Positions 1 to 61,683 of a DNA stretch of 64,000 bases are shown here, piece after piece (the stretch's first letter is position 1; every line of letters begins with the position of its first letter). Source of the stretch: Eledone cirrhosa (lineage: Eukaryota); assembly GCA_964016885.1 (NCBI GenBank), contig OZ024742.1, positions 82,088,001-82,152,000 on the forward strand. Direction: 5' to 3'. The translations under genes were made by a program, and so were the position numbers. The notes under the pieces are model-generated. The model was not told the DNA's origin. It worked only from the letters and a program-made list of their open reading frames with translations, and made no database searches.

Positions 1-3000
1 CACCGGTGGTTATATAACCATACATTCGCCAATCCTCGATAAGAGTGTTTAAATGTCGAACCTAAACAGTTCGATTAACGGTGAAATGGAGACTAGAATG
101 TCATGTGACAGACTCTCACCCAACAGGTGCTCCCTTGTACAGAAGCAGGGACCTGGCTGTCAACCAAATACTGCTGGTGTCGGAGGAAGAAGAAGAAGGA
201 AAGGGACCAGAACCAACTGGATGAAAGAATTGAGTAGAACTGATATGCAATGTTACCTGAAGAGTAACCCCAAGGAGAAAGGCTATAGGAAACGGATGCA
301 TAACATCCGGAATGAGATTGGTCTATTTAAATTAGATGAACAAAAATTAGCCGGGCAGGCTCGGGTAATAAGAACTAATGGGTAGATAAGCGATCTGGAA
401 CTGGAGGGACTGAGCAGAGAGATTAACTTGGAGATGGAGAGTGGAGTATGCCAGGCAAACGAGCCAGTGGGAAATGAAGGTGAAAGGGTCGAGAGAACGG
501 AGGAACAACCCGAAGCAGACAATGATCTGAATGCTGAGATAAAAGTACCTGGAACAGAAATACGGCCACTGAGGAGACGAATGCTGACGGGCTAGGACAA
601 GATTTGGTTGATATCCTAAACTTAGTGGGAGATGAATTGAACAATGATAGTGGGAGACCTATGAACCTAAGATTTGTAGACAGGAAAAAGTTAAAAGAAA
701 CAACAGCTAAGGTAAACAAAGTCATCCCATACAGTGAGGCGAGGAGCCTTCACCAGTGCAACAATATCCTCAAAACAACTGCAAATACTGTGAGGAAACT
801 ACTTGCTATAAAAGCGAGAGGAAACAACAGACAAGAAAGAGCAGAGCCTTGGTGGAAGAAACGACTGAGTGGTCAAATCAGGGAAATGAGAAATGACATT
901 GGAAAGCTTGAGTCCCTCCTGATTGGACACTAAAAAAGATAGACACTAAAAATAGACATGAAATAAAGTACAAACGTAGGAGGAAAAAGCTAAATATTAT
1001 CATAGAGGAACTGAAGCAACGCATTGTAGCAAAGAGTGCAAAAATCAGGCGTTACGAGAACAGAGTCAGTATAGACAGAACCGCATGTTCGACAACAACC
1101 AGAAGATGTTGTTTGGACAGCTTGAAGGGAAAGAAAGAGGCAACGACTTGATCCCTGAGGCGGAACAAACTAAAACATTCTGGAGAGGAAGATGGGTGCA
1201 GGATGTTAAAAACAATGACCAGGCAGTGTGGATTGAGACAGTACAGAAGGAGATCAGTGAACAGGCACACCAACAAACTGATTTGAGTATCACAGTTGAA
1301 ACTCTTAAATGGCAGGCCAAAAAACTAACCAGCTGGAAATCACCAGGCCCAGATGGTGTGCAGGGGTATTGGATTAAAAATATAACATCCCTCCACCCGA
1401 AACTGACAACCATGTTCAATGACTGCTTCATGTCAGGTGAGGTACCAGAGTGGTTAACAAAATGTACCACAGTCCTGATAATGAAAGCCCGAATCAAGGG
1501 TAATGATGCTACCAACTATAGACCTATCACATGTCTGTCCGTAATGTGGAAACTGTTGACAAGCATTGTGTCTGAGGAAATCTACCATCACCTCCACACA
1601 AACAACATGTTACCGGACGAACAGAAAGGATGCCGAAAGATGTCACGTGGTACAACGGACCAGTTACTTGTTGATAAGATGGTAATGAGGAATTGCAAGA
1701 GGAGACACACTGGTCTTGCCATGGGATGGATAGACTACAAAGAGGATCACCAAAAGCATGGAGATCTTCAAGGTGGCAGATAACATCAGACAGCTGTTGG
1801 GCAAAAGTATGAAGTCCTGGGAAACAGAGTTAACATCAAATGGAGAATCCTTGGGAAGCGTGAAGTTCAAGAGAGGTATCTTCCAGGGAGATAGTCTGTA
1901 CCCTCTGTTGTTTGTCTTTGCCCTGATGCCCTTGACCAGTGTACTGCGAAAAGTGATAGCAGGATACAAGTTGGGAAAGGGAGAGCTTACCATCAATCAC
2001 CTCCTCTTCATGGACGATCTGAAGCTCGTCGGGAAGAGTGAGAAGGAGTTGGATGTGCTTGTTGACACTGTCCGTATTTTCAGCAATGATATATGTATGC
2101 AATTTGGTATTAGTAAGTGTGTAGTCATTGTGAAGAGAAGGGATAATTTGAGCAGAAGTAACGGAATCCAGATACCAACAGGTGAGATGATAAAGGAAAT
2201 TTACTCTGAGGAGGGATACAAGTATTTGGGCGTTCTGGAGGCTGATGACATCAAGAACAAAAAAATGAAGGAATTGATAATAACTGAATACCTTCGGAGA
2301 GTAAGGAGCGTATTAAAGTCACATCTGAACAGTAGGAATGCCATAAGTGCAGTAAATTCCCGAGCTGTGTCTACAGTGCGGGAATCCAGAGATGGAATGT
2401 TGCTGAACAAAAAGAAATGGATAGGAATACTAGGAAGCTATTGACTATCTACAACATATTCCACAAGAGGAGTGATGTCGATAGAGTCTACTTAAGGAGA
2501 TCTGAGGGTTGAAGAGGTCTTATCAGCATAGAGGACTGTGTTCAGATGGAGAAAAACAACCTACACAAATACGTGACTGATAGTAAGGAGCCAATGCTCA
2601 GAACTGTACTGAAGGAGGGGACAATAGGCCAGGGGATGCCCAAGGAGGAAATAACATCAAGGAAAAAGAGCAGCCTTCATGAAAATCCCTTCATAGTTCC
2701 TTCTTTGAGAGAAATGAATTTAGAGATCCACAGACATGGAACTGGTTGAAAGGAGGAGACCTTAAAAAGGCTACAGAAGGAATGTTAATGGCTGCGCAGG
2801 TGCAGGCCCTCAAAACGAAGTGGTTGAAACACCACATTTACAAGGAGGAAGCTAGCCCACTGTGCAGGGTCTGTGGAGAGAGAGGAGACTGTGGCTCACA
2901 TTGTATCCGAGTGTAAACACCTAGCCCAGACTCACTATAAGGGCTGGAGACATGATGTGATGGGCAGGGTGATCCACTTGCACCTATGCAAAGAAACTCG

Positions 3001-3443
3001 AACACAATAGTCCTGACCTGCTGGTTTTGGACAAGGAAAAAAGATCGTGCCTGATTGTGGATGTGGCCCTCCCATTCGACATGAGAGTGCAAGACAAGGA
3101 GAGGGAGAAAATTCACCGATACCAGGCCTTAAAGTGGGAGGTAAAACGGATTTGGAACTGCCATGAAGTCAAAGTGGTCCCGATTGTCATAGGTCCACTA
3201 GGTACTATCTCAAAAAGTTTCCAGGGATGGTTAAAGAAAATTGGCACCCCCTCCCCCCCGCCGCTTTTTGGAACATTTCAAAAGGCATGCTTGCTGGGAA
3301 CAGCAAGAACCCTCCGATACTTCCTGAATATCTGAGGCTGCTGGTAGTGGCTTGATATTCATTTCAACAAACATTCCTGTTAACTAACATCAATGAGTCA
3401 GACTCAAAGAACAATAATAATAATAATAATGTAATAATAATAA
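1..3443 (+). mobile_element. R4/Dong-clade non-LTR retrotransposon (RT + CCHC + restriction-like endonuclease), decayed, with (TAA)n tail
   Basis: Frameshifted ORF pieces 53-3335. RT motifs: KSPGPDG, NYRPITCL, RGIFQGDSLYPLLF, HLLFMDDLKL, YKYLGVLE. Then a CRVCGE..HIVSEC zinc motif and the RLE domain PDL..DKEKRSCLIVDVALPFD..EK. Short 3' UTR followed by (TAA)n at 3413-3443. Confidence 0.93.
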
Positions 3444-3522: not shown

Positions 3523-4072
3523 ATTAAAATAACAGATTAAAGTTTAAGCAAATAATCACTGCTTTCACTCTTAACGGGATCTTCTGAAACTAAAAAAATC
3601 AATCTGTGAACGCAGAAGTAAATATTTCGAAAAACGTTGCAACCGAAGGAAAACAGGAAGACGACACTTTGGTTCGTGGAGACGATCCTTGGCAATGAAC
3701 GAAAGAAAACGAAGATAATATGTCATTATGTGGAGCGGTGAGAACAATTACACGCAAAGACGAAACCACGTTTATGGAATAAATGTAGTCGTAGACTACG
3801 ACTTGCTTTATACCATAAATGTGGTTTTGTCTTTGCGTGATAATTGTTCTCCTGCCCCACATAATGACGTATTATCTTCCTTTTTTTCCGTTCATTGCCA
3901 ATGAACGTCTCTATGAACGAAAGTATCGTCTACCTATTTTCTTCTGGTTGCAACGTTTTTCGAAATATTTCCTTCTGCATTCACATGTTAATTGATTTTT
4001 TTAGTTTCAGAAGATCCCGTTAAGGGTGAAATCAGTGATTCTTTGCTTAAACTTTAATCTGTTATTTTAATT
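3523..4072. repeat. ~550 bp imperfect palindrome, probable PLE pseudo-LTR fold-back
   Basis: Arms are reverse complements around the centre gtcgtagactacgac (~3795). Right end abuts (TAAA)n(AT)n. Hammerhead-like CAGAAGA-TCCC..GGGT-GAAA near the outer end of each arm. Confidence 0.8.
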
Positions 4073-10593: not shown

Positions 10594-10803
10594 AAAAAGT
10601 ATGACCCCGACGGCAGAGCTGAAGCCGTTTCGACGGCCATTTCTGGACTCAGAAATAGCCGTCGAAACGGCTTCAGCTCTGCTGTCGGGGTCATATTTTT
10701 CCTATTTCCCACTCTACTACCCTAAGTATTGAGTACTCTGGTGCGTTATGGTCCATCTGGTTCCTTACCACAATTCCTTTGTTATGTATATATATATATA
10801 TAC

Positions 10804-18831: not shown

Positions 18832-18909
<78 letters not shown>

Positions 18910-19051
18910 ATACTTTGGGAGGGTCATGTTGCCAATAAGAAACACACGCACCAGTTGCTTTCACTTCAATTTATTATATATTTATAAATTTATAAATTTA
19001 TAAATTTCTGGTTGGCTGGTTGGTTCCACAAACAGATAGTTGTTTATATAT

Positions 19052-19096
19052 AGTCATAGTTCTTTCGTCACACACTCTGTGACCTCTTCAGCGACT
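19052..19096 (-). ncRNA. Minimal type I hammerhead ribozyme
   Basis: AGTCG-CTGAAGA-GGTCACA-GAGTG-TGTGAC-GAAA-GAAC-TA-TGACT. Confidence 0.85.
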
Positions 19097-19610
19097 GGGG
19101 ATTCCTATCTTTGTTTCTGTGCCTCTCCTTTGTTCTGTCCTACGCCATTTTGTTTCTGTGCGTGTGTTGTGTGCTCAGTCTGCGCATGCGCAGACTGATC
19201 ACACAACATCTTCTCTAATTTACACAACATGTTCTCTAATTTACACAAGGGTAAATTAGAGAATATAGAAATAAAAATTGAATCTACACACAGAAAAGAC
19301 GCAATGTTTATACAAATTATAGAGGCAATAAACATAAACATAAAAGAATTACAACCAAAATTAAATAGAAAATATGAGTGGAACAGCAACCTCACAACTT
19401 ACAATTAAGGACAAAATGAAAACACACACACACACATAGAACAAACAATCAACCAGTAACATGTAAATAAACAAATAAATAAATGAACGTAAACACACAC
19501 AGACACCCGGTTGTGGCGCATGCGCAGACTGAGCACACAACACACACACAAAAACAAAATGGCGTAGGACAGAACAAAGGAGAGGCACAGAAACAAAGAT
19601 AGGAATCCCC

Positions 19611-19655
19611 AGTCACTGAAGAGGTCACAGAGTGTGTGACGAAAGAACTATGACT
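19611..19655 (+). ncRNA. Minimal type I hammerhead ribozyme
   Basis: AGTCA-CTGAAGA-GGTCACA-GAGTG-TGTGAC-GAAA-GAAC-TA-TGACT: all core bases present, with stems I and II paired. Confidence 0.88.
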
Positions 19656-19855
19656 ATATATAAACAACTATCTGGTTGTGGAACCAACCAACCAGAAATT
19701 TATAAATTTATAAATGTATAAATATATAATAAATTGAAGTGAAAGCAACTGGTGCGTGTGTTTCTTATTGGCAACATGACCCTCCCAAAGTATAACTATA
19801 TCGGTTTCAACACACGATTTCAGATAAAGAATCTTGCTAAACAAATTCAGAAACG

Positions 19856-19909
<54 letters not shown>

Positions 19910-24636: not shown

Positions 24637-25564
24637 TTGTATAATGTGTAATAATAGTAATCATCTATATAACCTTATGCTTACTATGATTTTTTTTTAT
24701 TGTTATTTGAAATCTCCGTCCAGCTCGAATATGAGATTTATCACTATAAACCATTGAGGCAGGCAAATACAATTCGGGTTTTAATTGTATGAAATCCATG
24801 TTGGAAAATATTTAAGTAACAATATATGACTCATAGAGCAAAAATATTAGAACCAAAACAGTTAATTATATATCATTTTAATTCATTTACGGTCCCTTCA
24901 TCCATATTTTGAATTGATTCAAAATGAATTATTAATTAATTAATTAAAATAAACCATAAAATTGGAATCATCAAAATTATTAAAATGATGAAAATATAAA
25001 TTAATTACCTGGCAAATAATACAATTTGAAAACACACGAGCACGGCGGTTAAACTATAGCGCTACGAGATATAAATATTGATATTAAACTAGGCACTCAA
25101 GCAAACATGTAATACAATTGTAAGTTTTCAAATAAGAAATACAGGACAAATATATACATAATTGCATATATATATATGTCCAGAATTAGCCGTCGAAACG
25201 GCTTGAGCTCAGCCGTCGGTGTCTTACTTGTTCCTATTACCCACTCTACTACCCTAAGTATTGAGTACTTTGGTGCGTTATGGTCCACCTGGTTCCTTAC
25301 CACATTTCTTTCGTTATATATATATATATATATATATATATTTCGTTTCTGAATTTGATTAGCAAGATTCTTTATCTGAAATCGTGTGTTGAAACCGATA
25401 TTGTTATACTTTGGGAGGGTCATGTTGACAATAAGAATTTATGTTGGGAGGGTCATGTTGCCAATAAATTTATTATAAATTTATTATAATAAATTGAAGT
25501 GAAAGCAACTGGTGCGTGTGTTTCTTATTGGCAACATGACCCTCCCAAAGTATAACAATATATA

Positions 25565-28107
<2,543 letters not shown>

Positions 28108-35814: not shown

Positions 35815-36221
35815 GTGGAACACTGGAAGGTAATATCCGTAGTGGTAGAGCACTCAGTCCAAGGGACGAGTTAGGTAGAAGTGGTTACACAACAGTACAG
35901 TTAGTTCACCATACCGAGAACAAATGTTTCACCTTAGCGGATCCTCAGCTCGGAATGGGCATGGTTATAGGAACAGGAAGGACAACCGTACGAACGCGCA
36001 TGCGCAGAAACCCGGTCACTTCACGCAGGCAATACTAGACTGCGTGCGAGAGGTGTAAGGGAGATAACTGCGAAAGTCCGAAAAGTGTTGAAAATAAAAT
36101 TACAAAGAATCAGTCCGGAGCCTTGTAGTTATGCAATAGGTATTTGGCGACGTGTGGACAACGTGGGAAAAATTCAATCCTCGTGTTTAGGCAATCACTA
36201 TTGCGTAATCTCTTTATAATA
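35810..36221 (-). mobile_element. PLE 3' end (ORF C-terminus + pLTR with hammerhead), same family as 57-59.8 kb element
   Basis: KRLRNSDCLNTRIEFFPRCPHVAKYLLHNYKAPD* and a pLTR homologous to 59430-59840. Confidence 0.88.
35914..35953 (-). ncRNA. Minimal type I hammerhead ribozyme
   Basis: CCGAG-CTGAGGA-TCC-GCTAA-GGT-GAAA-CATTTG-TT-CTCGG. Sister copies at 40347-40384 and 59707-59744. Confidence 0.78.
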
Positions 36222-37575
36222 GGGTTACTGTTCGTCTTATGGTCTTTTCGAAGCCAATACAACGCTGGCACGTCATTGTTCCAGCCCTGGAAGATGTTGG
36301 CAGTCCGTTTATTGTGCTGCATTATGTTTGTCCACATCATCATATGAGCGTTGAGGGTTTTCTCCCTATCCTCATGCTCTTGTGGTGTTACTTCTCTTGT
36401 GTTAGTGATGAGGGTTGCATTGCCTGGATGTAGTTTGACAGACTGTCAACCAACATTCTGCCCACTTGTCTGTTGGAAAGCATACAATCACTCCATTACG
36501 TGAGCGTTGCATGAGCTTACGCAATCCATTTGCAGATTTTTCTCCCAGTTGCTGGGGCTCCATTCTATTTTGCTTCTTGATATACTGTTCTATAATATTT
36601 CTAAGTTTATATCTAGCTATACTAAATTGTGCTTCTTTTTGTTCCTCGACCTGCGACGGATATTGCGTGCGTTTGTTAAAAGCTAAAGTCGTGACGTGGA
36701 CTCGTCGTAGGTCGAAGGACATATCCGAAGGGTTATAACAAGCAGGCAGAATTCCAGGCTGCTGATTCATGTAACTATTGATGTTGTTAATGTTAGTTGT
36801 GTTGATTATATTTCTATTTCCACCAACAGCCTCATGGTTGTTTCTATGTCTCTCATTATTCCTCCTGTCTCTTTCATCTGGCTCATTGTTATTATCTACT
36901 CTATTTTGTATGTATGTGTGTTCGTCCTCGTTATGTTCTCTGTCAGTATCGATAGTCTCCCTTCTTCTTTCAATCCCATTACGTTCCCTTACTTGTGTTA
37001 CTGTCATTATCTGATTTCTGTGTCTGGGTGTCTGTTAAGATTGCTGTGGTGGGGGTGAGAGGCATACGATGTGTGTGTGTTGTTGTTGTTGTTGTTGTTG
37101 TGTGGTGTTGTTGATGTGTGTTGCTGTTGTTGTTGTCTCCGTGTATATTGTTATTATTGTTGTGTGTGTTGTTGTTGTTGTTTGTGTCTGTGTGTCTGTT
37201 GTTGTTGTCTCTGAGTATGTTATTATTGTTGTTGGGTGTGTTGTTGTTGTTGTTGTTGTTATCGTTGTTTGTGTCTGTGTGTCTGTTGTTGTTGGGATGT
37301 GTGTTGTGTGTGTGTGTGTGCGTATGTTGTTACATTTGTTTTTGTTTTTGTTGTTGTTTCTTTTGAGGCTCCAACGTAATTTTGTAAATGATTTTTCTAT
37401 TTATGACAAGCATCTTATCAGATTTACCTTATTATATGTGGCATATTTAGGTGGTTGCTGTAATGTGGATAGTTCCTCATGGTCTACTGTAGTGTTGCTG
37501 TATATATTTGTGTTGTTGTTGAATTCATCTGTTAATGAGATTTCGGCCATGTTTATACCATCAATGCTATCTGGA
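36222..37575 (-). mobile_element. N-terminal fragment of a Neptune-like PLE ORF
   Basis: FDLRRVHVTTLAFNKR..P, GLRKL..IVCFPTDK.GR and PALYWLRKDHK, with a (CAA)-rich low-complexity block at 37070-37365. Confidence 0.7.
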
Positions 37576-37615
37576 TATATATATGTGTATATATATATAT
37601 AAATATATATATATG

Positions 37616-51838: not shown

Positions 51839-51895
<57 letters not shown>

Positions 51896-54800
51896 GTTCT
51901 TTGAGTCTGAGTCATTGATGTTAGTTAACTGGAAAGTTTGTTGAAATGAATATCAAGCCACTACCGGCAGCCTCAGATATTCAGGACGTATCGGAGTGTT
52001 CTTGCTGTTCCCAGCAAGCATGCCTTTTGAAGCGTTCCAAAAAGCGTGGCGGGGCAATTTTCTTTCACCATCCCTGGAAACTTTTTTGAGATAGTACCTA
52101 GTACGCCTATGACAATCAGGACCACTTTGACTTCATGGCAGTTCCAAATCCTTTTTACATCCCAATTTAAGTCCTGGTATCGGTTAATTTTCTCCCTCTC
52201 CTTCTCTTGCACTTACGTGTCGAATGGGCAGGCCACATCCACAATCCGGCACGATCTTTTTCCTTTGTCCAAAACTACCAGGTCAGGTCTATCGTGTTCC
52301 AGTTTCTTGTCCGTCTGTATCCTAAAATCCCACAGCAGCCTCACCTGATCGTTTTCTATCACAAACTCTGGCTTATGCCCATATCACTTCACAGAATGTG
52401 TTGAATTGTTTGCTTTGCATAGGTGCCAGTGGATCACCCTGCCCATCATATCATGTCTCCAGCCTTTAGAGTGAGTCTGAGCTAGGTGTTGACACTCGGA
52501 TACAATGTGAGCCACAATCTCCTCTCTATCTACACAGATCCTGCACATTGGGCTAACCTCCTCCTTGTAAATATGATGTTTCAACCACTTCGTTTTGAGG
52601 GCTGTTCTTGCGCAGCCAATAGCATTCCTTCTGTAGCCTTTTTAAGGTCTCCTCCTTTCAACCAATTACATGTGTGCGGATCTCTGAATTCAGTTTTCTC
52701 AAAGAAGGTACTATGAAGGGATTTTCCCTTAAGGCTGCTCTTCCTCCTTGATGTTATTTCCTCCTTGGAATCCCCTGGCCTACTGTCCCCTCCTTCAGTA
52801 CAGTTCTGAGCATTGGCTCCTTACTATAGGTCACGTATTTGTATAGGTTGTTTTTCTCCATCTGAACACAGTCCTATATGCTGATAAGACCTCTTCCACC
52901 TTCAGATCTCCTAAGGTAGAGTCTATCGACATCACTCCTCTTGTGGAACATGTTGTAGATAGTCAATAGCTTCCTAGTCTTCCTATCCATTTCTTTTTGT
53001 TCAGCAACATTCCATCTCAGAATTCCCGCACTGTACCTAATAATAGACACAGCTCGGGAATTTACCGCGCTTATGGCATTTCTGCTGTTCAGATGTGACT
53101 TCAATACGCTCCTTACTCTCCGAATGTATTCAGTTCTTAACAATTCCTTCATTTTTTTGTTCTTTATGCCATCAGCCTCCAGAACGCCCAAATACTTGTA
53201 TCCTTCCTCAGAGTCAATTTCCTTTATCATCTCACCTGTTGGTATCTGGATCCCGTTACTTCTGCTCAACCTACCCCTCTTCATCACAATGACTCCACAT
53301 TTACCAATACCAAACTGCATACATATATCACTGCTGAAAATACGGACAGTGTCAACAAGCACATCCAACTCCTTCTCACTTTTCCCGAAGAGCTTAAGAT
53401 CGTCCATGAAGAGGAGGTGATTGATGGTAAGCTCTCCCCTTCCCAACTTGTATCCTGCTCTCACTTTTCGCAGCATAATGGTCAAGGGCATCAGGGCAAG
53501 GACAAACATCAGAGGGGACAGGCTATCTCCCTGGAAGATACCTCTCTTGATCTTCACGCCTCCCAATGTTTCTCCAGCTGATGTTAACTCTGTTTTCCAG
53601 GACTTCATACTTTTGCCCAACAACTGTCTGATGTTATCTGCCAACTTGAATATCTCTAGGCTGTTGGTGATCCTAGAATGAGGCATCATGTCAATGCCTT
53701 TTTGTAGTCTATCCATCCCATGGCAAGACCAGTGTGTCTCTTCTTACAATTCCTCATTACCATCTTATCAATAAGTAACTAGTCCTTTGTACCACGGGAC
53801 TTCTTTCGGCATCCTTTCTGTTCGTCAGGTAACAAGTTGTTTGTGTGGAGGTGATGGTAGATTTCCTCAGACACAATGCTTGTCAACAGTTTCCACATTA
53901 CGGACAGACATGTGATAGGTCTATAGTTGGTAACATCATTACTCTTGATTCGATGTTTCATTACCAGAACTGTGGTACTTTTTGTCAACCACTCTGGTAC
54001 CTCACCTGACATCAAGCAGTCATTGAACATGGTTGTCAGTTTCGAGTGGAGGGATGCTATATTTTTAATCCAATACCCATGCACACCATCTGGGCCTGGT
54101 GATTTCCAGTTGGTTAGTTTTTTGGCCTGCCCCTTAAGAGTTTCAACTGTGATACTCAAATCAGTTTGTTGGTGTGCCTGTTCACTAATCTCCTTTTGTA
54201 CTTTCTCAATCCACACTGCCTGGTCATTATGTTTAACATCCTGCTCCCATATTCCTCTCTAGAATGTCTTAGTTTTTTCCGTCTCAGGGATCAAGTCGTT
54301 GCCTCTTTCTTTCCCTTCAAGCTGTCCAAACAACATCTTCTGTTTGTTGCCAAACATGCGGTTCTGTCTATACTGACTGACTCTGCTCTCCTATCGCCTA
54401 ATTTTTGCACTCTTTGCTACGATGCGTTGTTTCAGTTCCTCTATGATAATATTTCGTTTTTCCTCCTAGTTTTGTACTTTTTTTCCAGTCTATTTTTAGT
54501 GTCTATGTTTTTTAGTGTCCCATTCAGTAGGGACTCAAGCTTTCCAATGTCATTTCTCATTTCCCTGATTTTACCATTCAATCGTTTCTTCCACCAATGT
54601 TCTGATCTTTCTTGTTTGTTGTTTCCTCTCGCTTTTATGCCTAGTAATTTTCTCACCGCATTTGATGTTGCTTTGAGGATAGTGTTGCACTGGTGAAGGC
54701 TCCTCGCTTCAAGGTATGGGATGAATTTGTTTACCTTAGCTGTTGTTTCTTTTAACTTTTTCCTGTCTACACATCTTAGGTTCATATGTTTCCCACTATC

Positions 54801-55105
54801 ATTGTTCAATTCATCTACCACTAAATTTAGTATATCAACCAAATGTTGTCCTAGCCCGTCAGCATTCATCTCCTCATTGGCCGTATCTTTGTCCCAGGTA
54901 TTACTTATTTCAGCATTCAGATCATTGTCTGCTTCGGATGGTTCCTCCGTTCTCTCAACCTCTTTACCTTCATTTCCCACTGGCTCGTTTGCCTGGCATA
55001 CTCCACTCTCCATTTCCAACCTAATATCTCTGCTCAGTTCTCCAGTTCCAACTCGTTTATCCACCCATTAGTTCTTATTACCCGAGGCTGCCCGGCCAAT
55101 TTTTC
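51839..55105 (-). mobile_element. R4/Dong-clade LINE, second copy of the family at 1-3443, 5'-truncated
   Basis: Collinear homology with 343-3420 (e.g. RGIFQGDSLSPL, HLLFMDDLKLF, CRIC..HIVSEC, ARTLRYVLNI*) and a (TAA)n tail at 51839-51894. Confidence 0.95.
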
Positions 55106-59987: not shown

Positions 59988-61683
59988 ACGATATTAACAA
60001 ATGCAAACTATATTTATAAAACCATATTTATTTCATTATACATATTTCAAGGACACCAAGTTAAATTATGGTGTGCTTTCATCAGATAAAATATAATATA
60101 GATCAGTTTTATAAATAAATATTGACACACCCTTAAAAAATGCAACCAATACTGTTGGAAACTCCCTGATAGTGGATTGTAGCTTTAATTATATTATTAT
60201 TAGTATTGGATATTTTTATTTTTAAAATAAGCCGTTGGGTTACGGAGAAAGAGAAAGATAAATAAGGAGAGAGAGTAAAAAAAGAGAGAGAGACAGAGAA
60301 AAGAGAGAGAGACCAAAACAACAGAGGGAGAAAGATATATAGAGAGAGAGGAGACAGAGAGAAGGGCAGAAAACGAAAAACACTAAGTCATATCTTGTTG
60401 AGTTAACTTAACAATTGAGATGAAATGAATAAATAAAATTAGAAATGTTAATTATCATGAATGGAATATTCATATATAATATGAAAAATTAACCATTGTT
60501 TAAATATGATTAGATGTTTAGTTAATCATTTAAAAATTGAGATCAATGTATTAAAAATTGGGATCTATATATTAAGAAATCCATATATTACTAGAGAACT
60601 ACATATCATATAACACGTATACACACGCAAGAATACATATAAATATATATACACACTTATAAAATACATATACATATCTAATTACGTATATAATATATAC
60701 ACACAAAACATAAAGGATTCTTTAATTTAATTTAAGATATAGGAATCTTATAAAATGTTATAATTGTTAAGATATTAAAGGAATTTTTATGTTATACACA
60801 CTTTATGTTATTAAACAAATTTTTTTTAATATAAGTTTTATAAGATTACCTGTTATGTATTTATGGCTGTTATTATATGTCTATCTGTCACAAATCTTGG
60901 GATAATCACTATACATAAGTGCAATCAAATTGTATGGATATACACGCATATGTATATACACAATTCCAACATATACATATATATATATATATGTACCCTC
61001 AACCAATAGGTAGATACGCATCACGTATACATATACATACAGATAGACATACATTCATAAAAACGCATAAAACATATGTACATGTATGTCAATACACACA
61101 TATACTTATATACTCACATATAGAGAGAAGTATATATAAATACAGTACATAGTATAATTGAGTACATAAAATACAAAAGAATTATATTACAATTTGGAAA
61201 TATAATTATAAGCAATATAACTTTAAAAACAATACAATTTTAAAATATTATAGAATATTTTAAGTTATAATTTCAAAATAATAGTATGTTTAATAGATTT
61301 AGTATAGACATTTATTTTACGTATATTTAACTTAAAATTTTGAAAGGATAAACTTTCGAAAATAGGAGAAAGTATCAGAACGATAAAAAAAGAATAAAAA
61401 AATGTATTTATTTATCTTTCTCTTTCTCCGTAACCCAACGGCTTATTTTAAAAATAAAAATATCCAATACTAATAATAATATAATTAAAGCTACAACTCC
61501 ACTATCCGGGAGCTTCCAACAGTAATGGTTGCATTGTTAAGGGTATGTCAATATTTATTCATAAAACTGATCTATATTATATTTTATCTGATGAAAGCAC
61601 ACCATAATTTAACTTGGTGTGCTTGAAATATGTATAATGAAATAAATATGGTTTTATAAATATAGTTTCCATTTGTTAATATC

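What the first reader, a model, noticed from the sequence alone, without database searches (positions are those of the whole stretch)
18903..19860. Best specimen: ORF-less fold-back with two intact hammerheads, related to the neighbouring Neptune-like PLE
The arms are highly similar and both ribozymes keep every core base; their one difference (A/G) preserves stem I as G.U. The left arm folds at a perfect 24-bp palindrome tcagtctgcgcatgcgcagactga (19175-19198). The terminus (ttgttatac..gggagggtc), the GAAAGAAC stem III and GCGCATGCGC are shared with the pLTR of the PLE at 25565-27912, a candidate autonomous relative. A shrunken fold-back of the same termini lies at 25340-25560.
Basis: partly seen in the sequence, partly recalled or inferred. 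Interest (0 to 1): 0.75.

Follow-up and report, generated by a model that had tools for sequence, protein, structure and literature searches.

The report
Truncated head-to-head Penelope retroelement insertion
This hairpin-shaped stretch is a one-off, truncated double end of a Penelope-like jumping gene that has over 25,000 ends in this genome; the layout is already described, and it likely forms when both cut DNA strands start copying the same element RNA at two fixed points.

Summary
The fold-back is real: arms 96.6% identical, two hammerhead motifs of the minimal type I class on opposite strands, and a 24-bp palindrome. The interpretation mostly fails. The element is not free of coding sequence: it holds the last 54 and first 28 codons of its own Penelope-like (PLE) protein. 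Its parent is a family with 26,670 exact termini; the neighbouring PLE is a decayed sister family, 52-55% identical in protein. The junction and the palindrome each occur once in 3.0 Gb, so this is not a replicated mini-element. The A/G difference is a private change (A in 135 of 139 arms). Inverted pLTRs, a one-sided tail and opposite-strand hammerhead pairs are all published. What the family adds: of 137 resolved fold-backs, 130 have one tailed and one untailed arm. Either arm can be the longer, and the two arms share rare alleles. This favours twin priming on one RNA over fold-back of one cDNA. The scan reached this reading before on other DNA of this genome. No RNA data were available.

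The parts
18834..18901 (.). (TA)n host run, left
   Evidence: 68 bases of AT repeat
18902..19191 (-). Left arm: inverted 5'-truncated pLTR ending at site A (no tail)
   Evidence: matches reference copy positions 3645-3949; 96.6% identical to right arm
19052..19096 (-). Hammerhead motif, minimal type I, G.U in stem I; predicted cut after 19057
19175..19198 (.). 24-bp palindrome made by snap-back at the native 10-bp palindrome GCGCATGCGC
   Evidence: native reading has no such palindrome; one site in the genome
19192..19208 (+). 17-nt snap-back copy of the left arm's inner end (1 mismatch)
19209..19244 (.). Templated linker: two inverted copies of the right arm's inner end, with ACAACA between them; forms a 38-nt hairpin 19229-19266
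19244..19408 (+). Last 54 codons and stop of the family's GIY-YIG-type endonuclease
   Evidence: 91% identical to residues 868-919 of P0001; translation
19516..19801 (+). Right arm pLTR up to site A
19516..19567 (+). Candidate promoter: GCGCATGCGC (19516-19525) and AAAATGGCGTAG (19556-19567); likely RNA start at about 19531-19570
   Evidence: both motifs also in the sister family; inner arm ends peak here; promoter role inferred
19611..19655 (+). Hammerhead motif, minimal type I; predicted cut after 19650
19776..19859 (+). First 28 codons of the family ORF
   Evidence: tandem copies L112-L114 run on from here into frames of 338-369 aa
19802..19859 (+). Tail from site A to site B (about 58-61 nt; edges blur into AT)
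19860..19903 (.). (TA)n host run, right
   Evidence: 44 bases of AT repeat
25337..25561 (.). Second, independent fold-back of the same family: tailed left arm, untailed right arm, templated duplication at the joint, no hammerhead
25565..27914 (-). Decayed 5'-truncated copy of a sister PLE family; not the parent
   Evidence: 68% DNA and 52-55% protein identity to the family; stops in all frames; own family

Best explanation
The element is a single, truncated head-to-head insertion of a high-copy Penelope-like retrotransposon, likely made by twin priming: both nicked strands of a (TA)n target would prime reverse transcription on the same element RNA, one at site B and one at site A about 60 nt upstream. 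The two short cDNAs would then stop early, fold back on their own 3' ends and be joined by microhomology. The hammerheads are passengers of the copied pLTR. Shown: family membership, unique junction, one-tail rule, shared template of the arms, snap-back ends. From the literature: two RT start sites flanking the tail and extension of both target strands in vitro (PMC11167929). Inferred: one RNA molecule, the order of events, the joining pathway. Confidence about 0.95 for what it is, about 0.6 for the mechanism.
For: Family: 26,670 exact termini, 11,695 tailed and 12,769 untailed; near-full copies with frames of 863-1016 aa carrying RT and endonuclease motifs. One-tail rule: 130 of 153 two-ended insertions are tailed/untailed, 3 tailed/tailed, 4 untailed/untailed, 16 unresolved; 4 rows were dropped first as apparent duplicates. 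Sites picked only by an untailed end: 33 tailed partners against 2 untailed (P = 4.5e-9). Sites picked by a tailed end, counted by eye: 25 untailed partners, 1 tailed, 11 none, 3 unresolved of 40 (P = 1.1e-6). The untailed arm reaches further in 62 of 130 and the tailed arm in 34; a folded-back untailed cDNA cannot supply a tail. Arms are closer to each other than to the median other copy in 51 of 52, and share 57 rare alleles against about 6 expected. Both arms end within 3 nt of each other in 13 of 105 against 1.6 expected. Asymmetry does not grow with arm divergence (rho -0.10, P 0.47, n 52). In the window both inner ends carry their own snap-back copy.
Against: Seven of 137 resolved insertions break the rule by script; one (L132) reads as obeying it by eye. 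Of 60 untailed sites, 17 have no inverted partner (by eye). The symmetric junctions fit fold-back of one cDNA equally well. Shared alleles could also come from two RNAs of one source gene or from gene conversion between arms. Tailed arms do not pile up at site A as a collision on one RNA might predict (1 of 35). [quoted passage not shown] Breakpoints are BLAST ends against one reference copy and blur in low-complexity stretches. Most samples come from contigs C1-C2. No RNA data.
Confidence: 0.65

Rival explanations
1. Self-priming: one cDNA, primed at site B, folds back and copies itself; the endonuclease resolves the far end at site A; later deletions make the arms unequal. This follows the self-priming reading in PMC3846280 and the EN-resolution reading of the tail in PMC8557442.
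For: It gives the one-tail rule and identical arms directly. Symmetric junctions are in excess (13 of 105 within 3 nt). Junction palindromes such as 19175-19198 are real.
Against: The untailed arm is the longer in 62 of 130, by over 200 nt in 40. This holds in 4 of 14 insertions with near-identical arms, and asymmetry does not track divergence. Tailed arms of only 10-60 nt face long untailed arms. Untailed ends also occur alone.
Confidence: 0.2
2. Twin priming on two RNA molecules from the same source gene, held by a protein dimer whose two halves use different start sites.
For: It explains two cDNAs, shared alleles and shared ends at a likely RNA start. A dimer is predicted for the anole protein (PMC11167929).
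Against: Symmetric ends are scattered from reference 3626 to 3899, which two independent molecules would rarely share. It needs an extra rule to keep the two start sites different.
Confidence: 0.12
3. A replicated, non-autonomous, ribozyme-bearing fold-back element (retrozyme-like) moved by the neighbouring PLE.
For: Both hammerhead cores are intact; termini resemble the neighbour's.
Against: Junction and palindrome are unique; the one look-alike among 40 scored candidates has another junction. Two whole hammerheads occur in 46 of 130 fold-backs. A transcript holds one sense motif only, and it is predicted to be buried in an arm-to-arm duplex. The neighbour is a broken sister family.
Confidence: 0.03

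Closest known systems
Insertion units of endonuclease-positive Penelope-like elements (Pen2a_Av, PMC3846280, 8 passages read; Fig. 2 legend and text of PMC8557442, 12 passages read)
   Same: Adjacent inverted 5'-truncated pLTR, tail on one side only, pLTR plus tail holding the first codons of the ORF, palindromes at the inverted junction, (TA)n targets.
   Different: Tail about 60 nt rather than 30-40; nearly all of the ORF is missing here; the one-sided tail is counted here (130 of 137) rather than described.
Minimal type I hammerheads of metazoan PLE pLTRs (PMC4209133, parts 1-2 of 4 read)
   Same: Long helix II, 4-5 bp helix I, extra base between positions 9 and 10.1, G10.1-C11.1 pair, tiny helix III. 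The paper already reports pairs of motifs 100-700 bp apart on opposite strands and ties most motifs to truncated PLEs; here they are 525 bp apart.
   Different: Helix II is 6 bp (7-8 in Schistosoma). Loop 3 is AA here (GA or AG in other copies), so helix III is only partly self-complementary.
Poseidon element of the green anole, in vitro (PMC11167929, parts 1-2 of 4 read)
   Same: Two RT start sites inside the ORF start bound the tail; both target strands are cut and extended; AT-rich targets.
   Different: The parts read give no model for inverted arms and report no strand difference in start site. In this family both start sites read ATAT like the target, and the hammerhead lies upstream of the ATG.
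LINE-1 twin priming (recalled, not read)
   Same: Two primers from the two target strands on one RNA give an inverted insertion joined by microhomology.
   Different: LINE-1 inverts an upstream segment with little duplication; here the second site is fixed and the same RNA segment is usually copied twice.
Non-LTR retrozymes (bioRxiv 10.64898/2026.07.22.740005, part 1 of 5 read)
   Same: PLE-related, type I hammerhead, no intact protein.
   Different: Retrozymes are head-to-tail tandem units with same-strand hammerheads and a repeated monomer; this element is head-to-head and unique.

Membership tests
EN+ Penelope-like element (parent family) | Single ORF with RT followed by a C-terminal GIY-YIG-type endonuclease | tested here: met
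   Frames of 863-1016 aa with YVDD and YIGET motifs read by eye; Pfam gives only RVT_1 at E 9e-4, below cut-off, and no GIY-YIG hit. No fully open full-length copy was seen among those fetched.
EN+ Penelope-like element (parent family) | pLTRs from partial tandems that overlap the ORF start | tested here: met
   L112, L113, L114 run from the pLTR through the tail into the ORF
EN+ Penelope-like element (parent family) | Adjacent inverted 5'-truncated copy with a one-sided tail | tested here: met
   130 of 137 resolved fold-backs; window element included
EN+ Penelope-like element (parent family) | Target-site duplication | tested here: inconclusive
   both flanks are (TA)n, so none can be read
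Neptune clade | CX2-5CxxC linker before the endonuclease (shared with Nematis, PMC8557442) | tested here: met
   CIDKKCITC in P0001
Neptune clade | Placement in the RT tree with Neptune rather than Nematis | not tested
   no reference sequences were fetched; 'Neptune-like' rests on the linker only
Minimal type I hammerhead of PLEs | Conserved core, extra base at 9/10.1, G10.1-C11.1, short helix I and III | tested here: met
   stem II differs by two compensatory pairs in the sister family
Minimal type I hammerhead of PLEs | Self-cleavage (dimer- or protein-assisted) | not testable with these tools
   monomers were inactive in PMC4209133; arm ends show no peak at the predicted cut
Non-LTR retrozyme | At least two head-to-tail units with same-strand hammerheads | tested here: not met
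   head-to-head arms, opposite strands
Non-autonomous fold-back family | Several copies with one fixed internal junction | tested here: not met

The most novel reading that the evidence does not exclude
Penelope-like elements routinely insert by twin priming at two fixed start sites on one RNA, with strand displacement, so the inverted pLTR and the one-sided tail are a single mechanism. This family, with over 25,000 ends, also maps its RNA start just downstream of a GCGCATGCGC palindrome and at an AAAATGGCG motif, both kept in a sister family (NRF1-like and YY1-like, names recalled). That makes the open question of PLE integration testable with one two-template assay.
Probability: 0.55. Interest if true: 0.55.

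Novelty: new member of a known kind. Interest (0 to 1): 0.3.

Why it matters
The element itself is ordinary: one dead stub among many. Its family is a large natural record of PLE integration. PMC8557442 names the origin of tandem/inverted repeats and the tail as unsolved, and PMC3846280 proposes self-priming. The counts here argue for two separately primed cDNAs from one template and give a concrete in vitro test. Fold-backs with long matching arms could also yield double-stranded RNA if transcribed (inference, untested).

Tried and rejected
Rfam scan: no hammerhead family among 112 matches. Folding of the motifs alone is not better than shuffles (z -0.6 to -1.3), so the fold energy is no support; support comes from the core and the sister-family covariation. 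Fixed mini-element suggested by three pairs spaced 164-166 nt: their junctions differ. Collision of the tailed cDNA at site A: 1 of 35 ends there. RNA 5' ends at the hammerhead cut: 4 ends in 12 nt, hazard 0.20 per 100 nt against 0.23-0.26 nearby. Selection on the G.U pair: G in 4 of 139 arms. Solved structures: 0 matches for P0001. Sequencing runs: 5 listed, the only RNA run holds 0.04 of the words, which is no evidence; no reads were laid, so expression and insertion polymorphism stay open. Literature searches for twin priming in PLEs: 1 listing, a human TE review not read, and 0; for YY1 in pLTRs none of 15 listed papers held all four terms. The library lacks most subscription papers, and no supplements were read; they may bear on novelty.

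Full report
Observation. The element lies between (TA)n runs at 18902-19859. The left arm (18902-19191, minus) and right arm (19516-19801) are 96.6% identical over 290 columns. Each holds a hammerhead motif: stem I AGUC(A/G)/UGACU, core CUGAAGA plus one extra G, stem II GUCACA/UGUGAC, GAAA, stem III AG-AA-CU, cut after CUA. Rfam does not detect it; my descriptor finds 2 sites in the window and 0 in 20 shuffles. The sister family changes two stem II pairs compensatorily. The motif matches the minimal PLE hammerhead of PMC4209133, which also reports opposite-strand pairs 100-700 bp apart.

Parent. A search of the own genome gave 2079 candidates, 40 scored. Most extend upstream into an RT-endonuclease frame. 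The 26-nt terminus has 26,670 exact matches. The middle of the element is the last 54 codons of that frame (91% identity). The right end is its first 28 codons, since tandem copies run on from the tail into the ORF. The protein has a CX4CxxC linker, shared by Neptune and Nematis; the clade was not resolved. The neighbour at 25565-27914 is a sister family: 68% DNA, 52-55% protein identity, with stops, frameshifts and a damaged hammerhead. It shares the terminus because that is the ORF start.

Not a replicated unit. The junction 29-mer has one exact match, itself, among 38 within 2 mismatches. The palindrome has one site. The best look-alike, L002, has another junction and its tail on the other side. 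The palindrome is a 17-nt snap-back at the native GCGCATGCGC; the right arm's inner end has its own snap-back, copied twice in the linker. A transcript would carry one sense hammerhead, predicted to be paired with the other arm. Two whole hammerheads occur in 46 of 130 fold-backs.

One-tail rule. Family ends fall at site A (reference 3949) or site B (4010, with the tail): 12,769 and 11,695 exact matches. Among 153 two-ended insertions, after 4 rows were dropped as apparent duplicates, 130 are A/B, 3 B/B, 4 A/A and 16 unresolved; one B/B reads as A/B by eye. For an unbiased check I fetched 60 of the 100 listed sites (281 in all) of an untailed pattern. The script gives 33 tailed and 2 untailed partners (P 4.5e-9); by eye 35, 2, 6 unresolved and 17 without partner. 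Forty regions picked by a tailed end gave 25 untailed, 1 tailed, 11 none and 3 unresolved (by eye). The rule is described qualitatively in PMC3846280 and PMC8557442.

Mechanism. The untailed arm reaches further in 62 of 130 and the tailed arm in 34. A single cDNA that folds back cannot give a longer untailed arm facing a tailed one without later deletion, and asymmetry does not grow with arm divergence. The arms come from one template: 51 of 52 are closer than the median other copy, with 57 shared rare alleles against about 6 expected, and the window's arms share one seen in no other arm of the sample. In 13 of 105 simple junctions both arms end within 3 nt (1.6 expected, maximum 9 in 20,000 permutations). 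PMC11167929 shows two start sites bounding the tail and extension of both strands. I infer twin priming on one RNA, strand displacement by the downstream-primed RT, and microhomology joining with templated inserts (likeness to polymerase theta joining is recalled). Against: 6-7 exceptions, many one-ended copies, no pile-up at site A, and symmetric junctions that also fit self-priming.

Likely RNA start. Inner ends peak at reference 3660-3699: hazard 0.59 per 100 nt against 0.12-0.14 upstream and 0.23-0.26 downstream, with no peak at the hammerhead cut. The peak lies between GCGCATGCGC and AAAATGGCG. In 21 sister-family copies these are matched within one change in 11 and 17. The NRF1 and YY1 names are recalled. 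The stretch is AC-rich, so microhomology or alignment blur may add to the peak.

Earlier notes. I stated the twin-priming reading before opening the scan's notes; several unreviewed notes on other DNA of this genome say the same. They are not independent evidence. Searches for twin priming in PLE papers gave 1 unrelated listing and 0.

Verdict. Real, explained, a new member of a known kind. Interest 0.3, carried by the family statistics and not by this copy.

Noticed in passing
window 36221-37582 (-): Internal fragment of the 5' half of the same or a close PLE family, 82% identical to the reference copy.
   Followed up: partly
window 3592-3998: Another fold-back, arms of 203 nt at 81%, 1 nt apart; family not identified.
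   Followed up: no
window 10596-10699 and 25180-25315: A different (TA)n-anchored repeat with a GC-rich hairpin end; the first copy is a near-perfect 100-nt fold-back. The same ends flank several fetched loci.
   Followed up: no
window 546-3430 and 51878-54900: Two inverted copies of a decayed RT-bearing repeat, 85-94% alike, about 50 kb apart.
   Followed up: partly
window 61588-61630 (+): CUGAUGA, 10-bp stem, GAAA: loose hammerhead-like match that failed the stricter scan.
   Followed up: partly
L146 about 3614 (+), L119 about 2710 (+): A second hammerhead type without the extra base and with a fully palindromic stem III, 12 hits among the loci; another family.
   Followed up: no
L257-L280: The sister family also ends at two sites, with and without a 40-50 nt tail; too few pairs to test the rule.
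   Followed up: partly
L112-L114, ORF residues about 250-420: The family ORF has a long Asn/Thr/His-rich low-complexity stretch where copies shift frame; N-rich inserts are described for rotifer Penelopes in PMC3846280.
   Followed up: no
family hammerhead, reference 3759-3784: Common subfamily variants fall on loop 2, loop 3, the cut base (A or U) and the last stem I base, not on the invariant core.
   Followed up: partly
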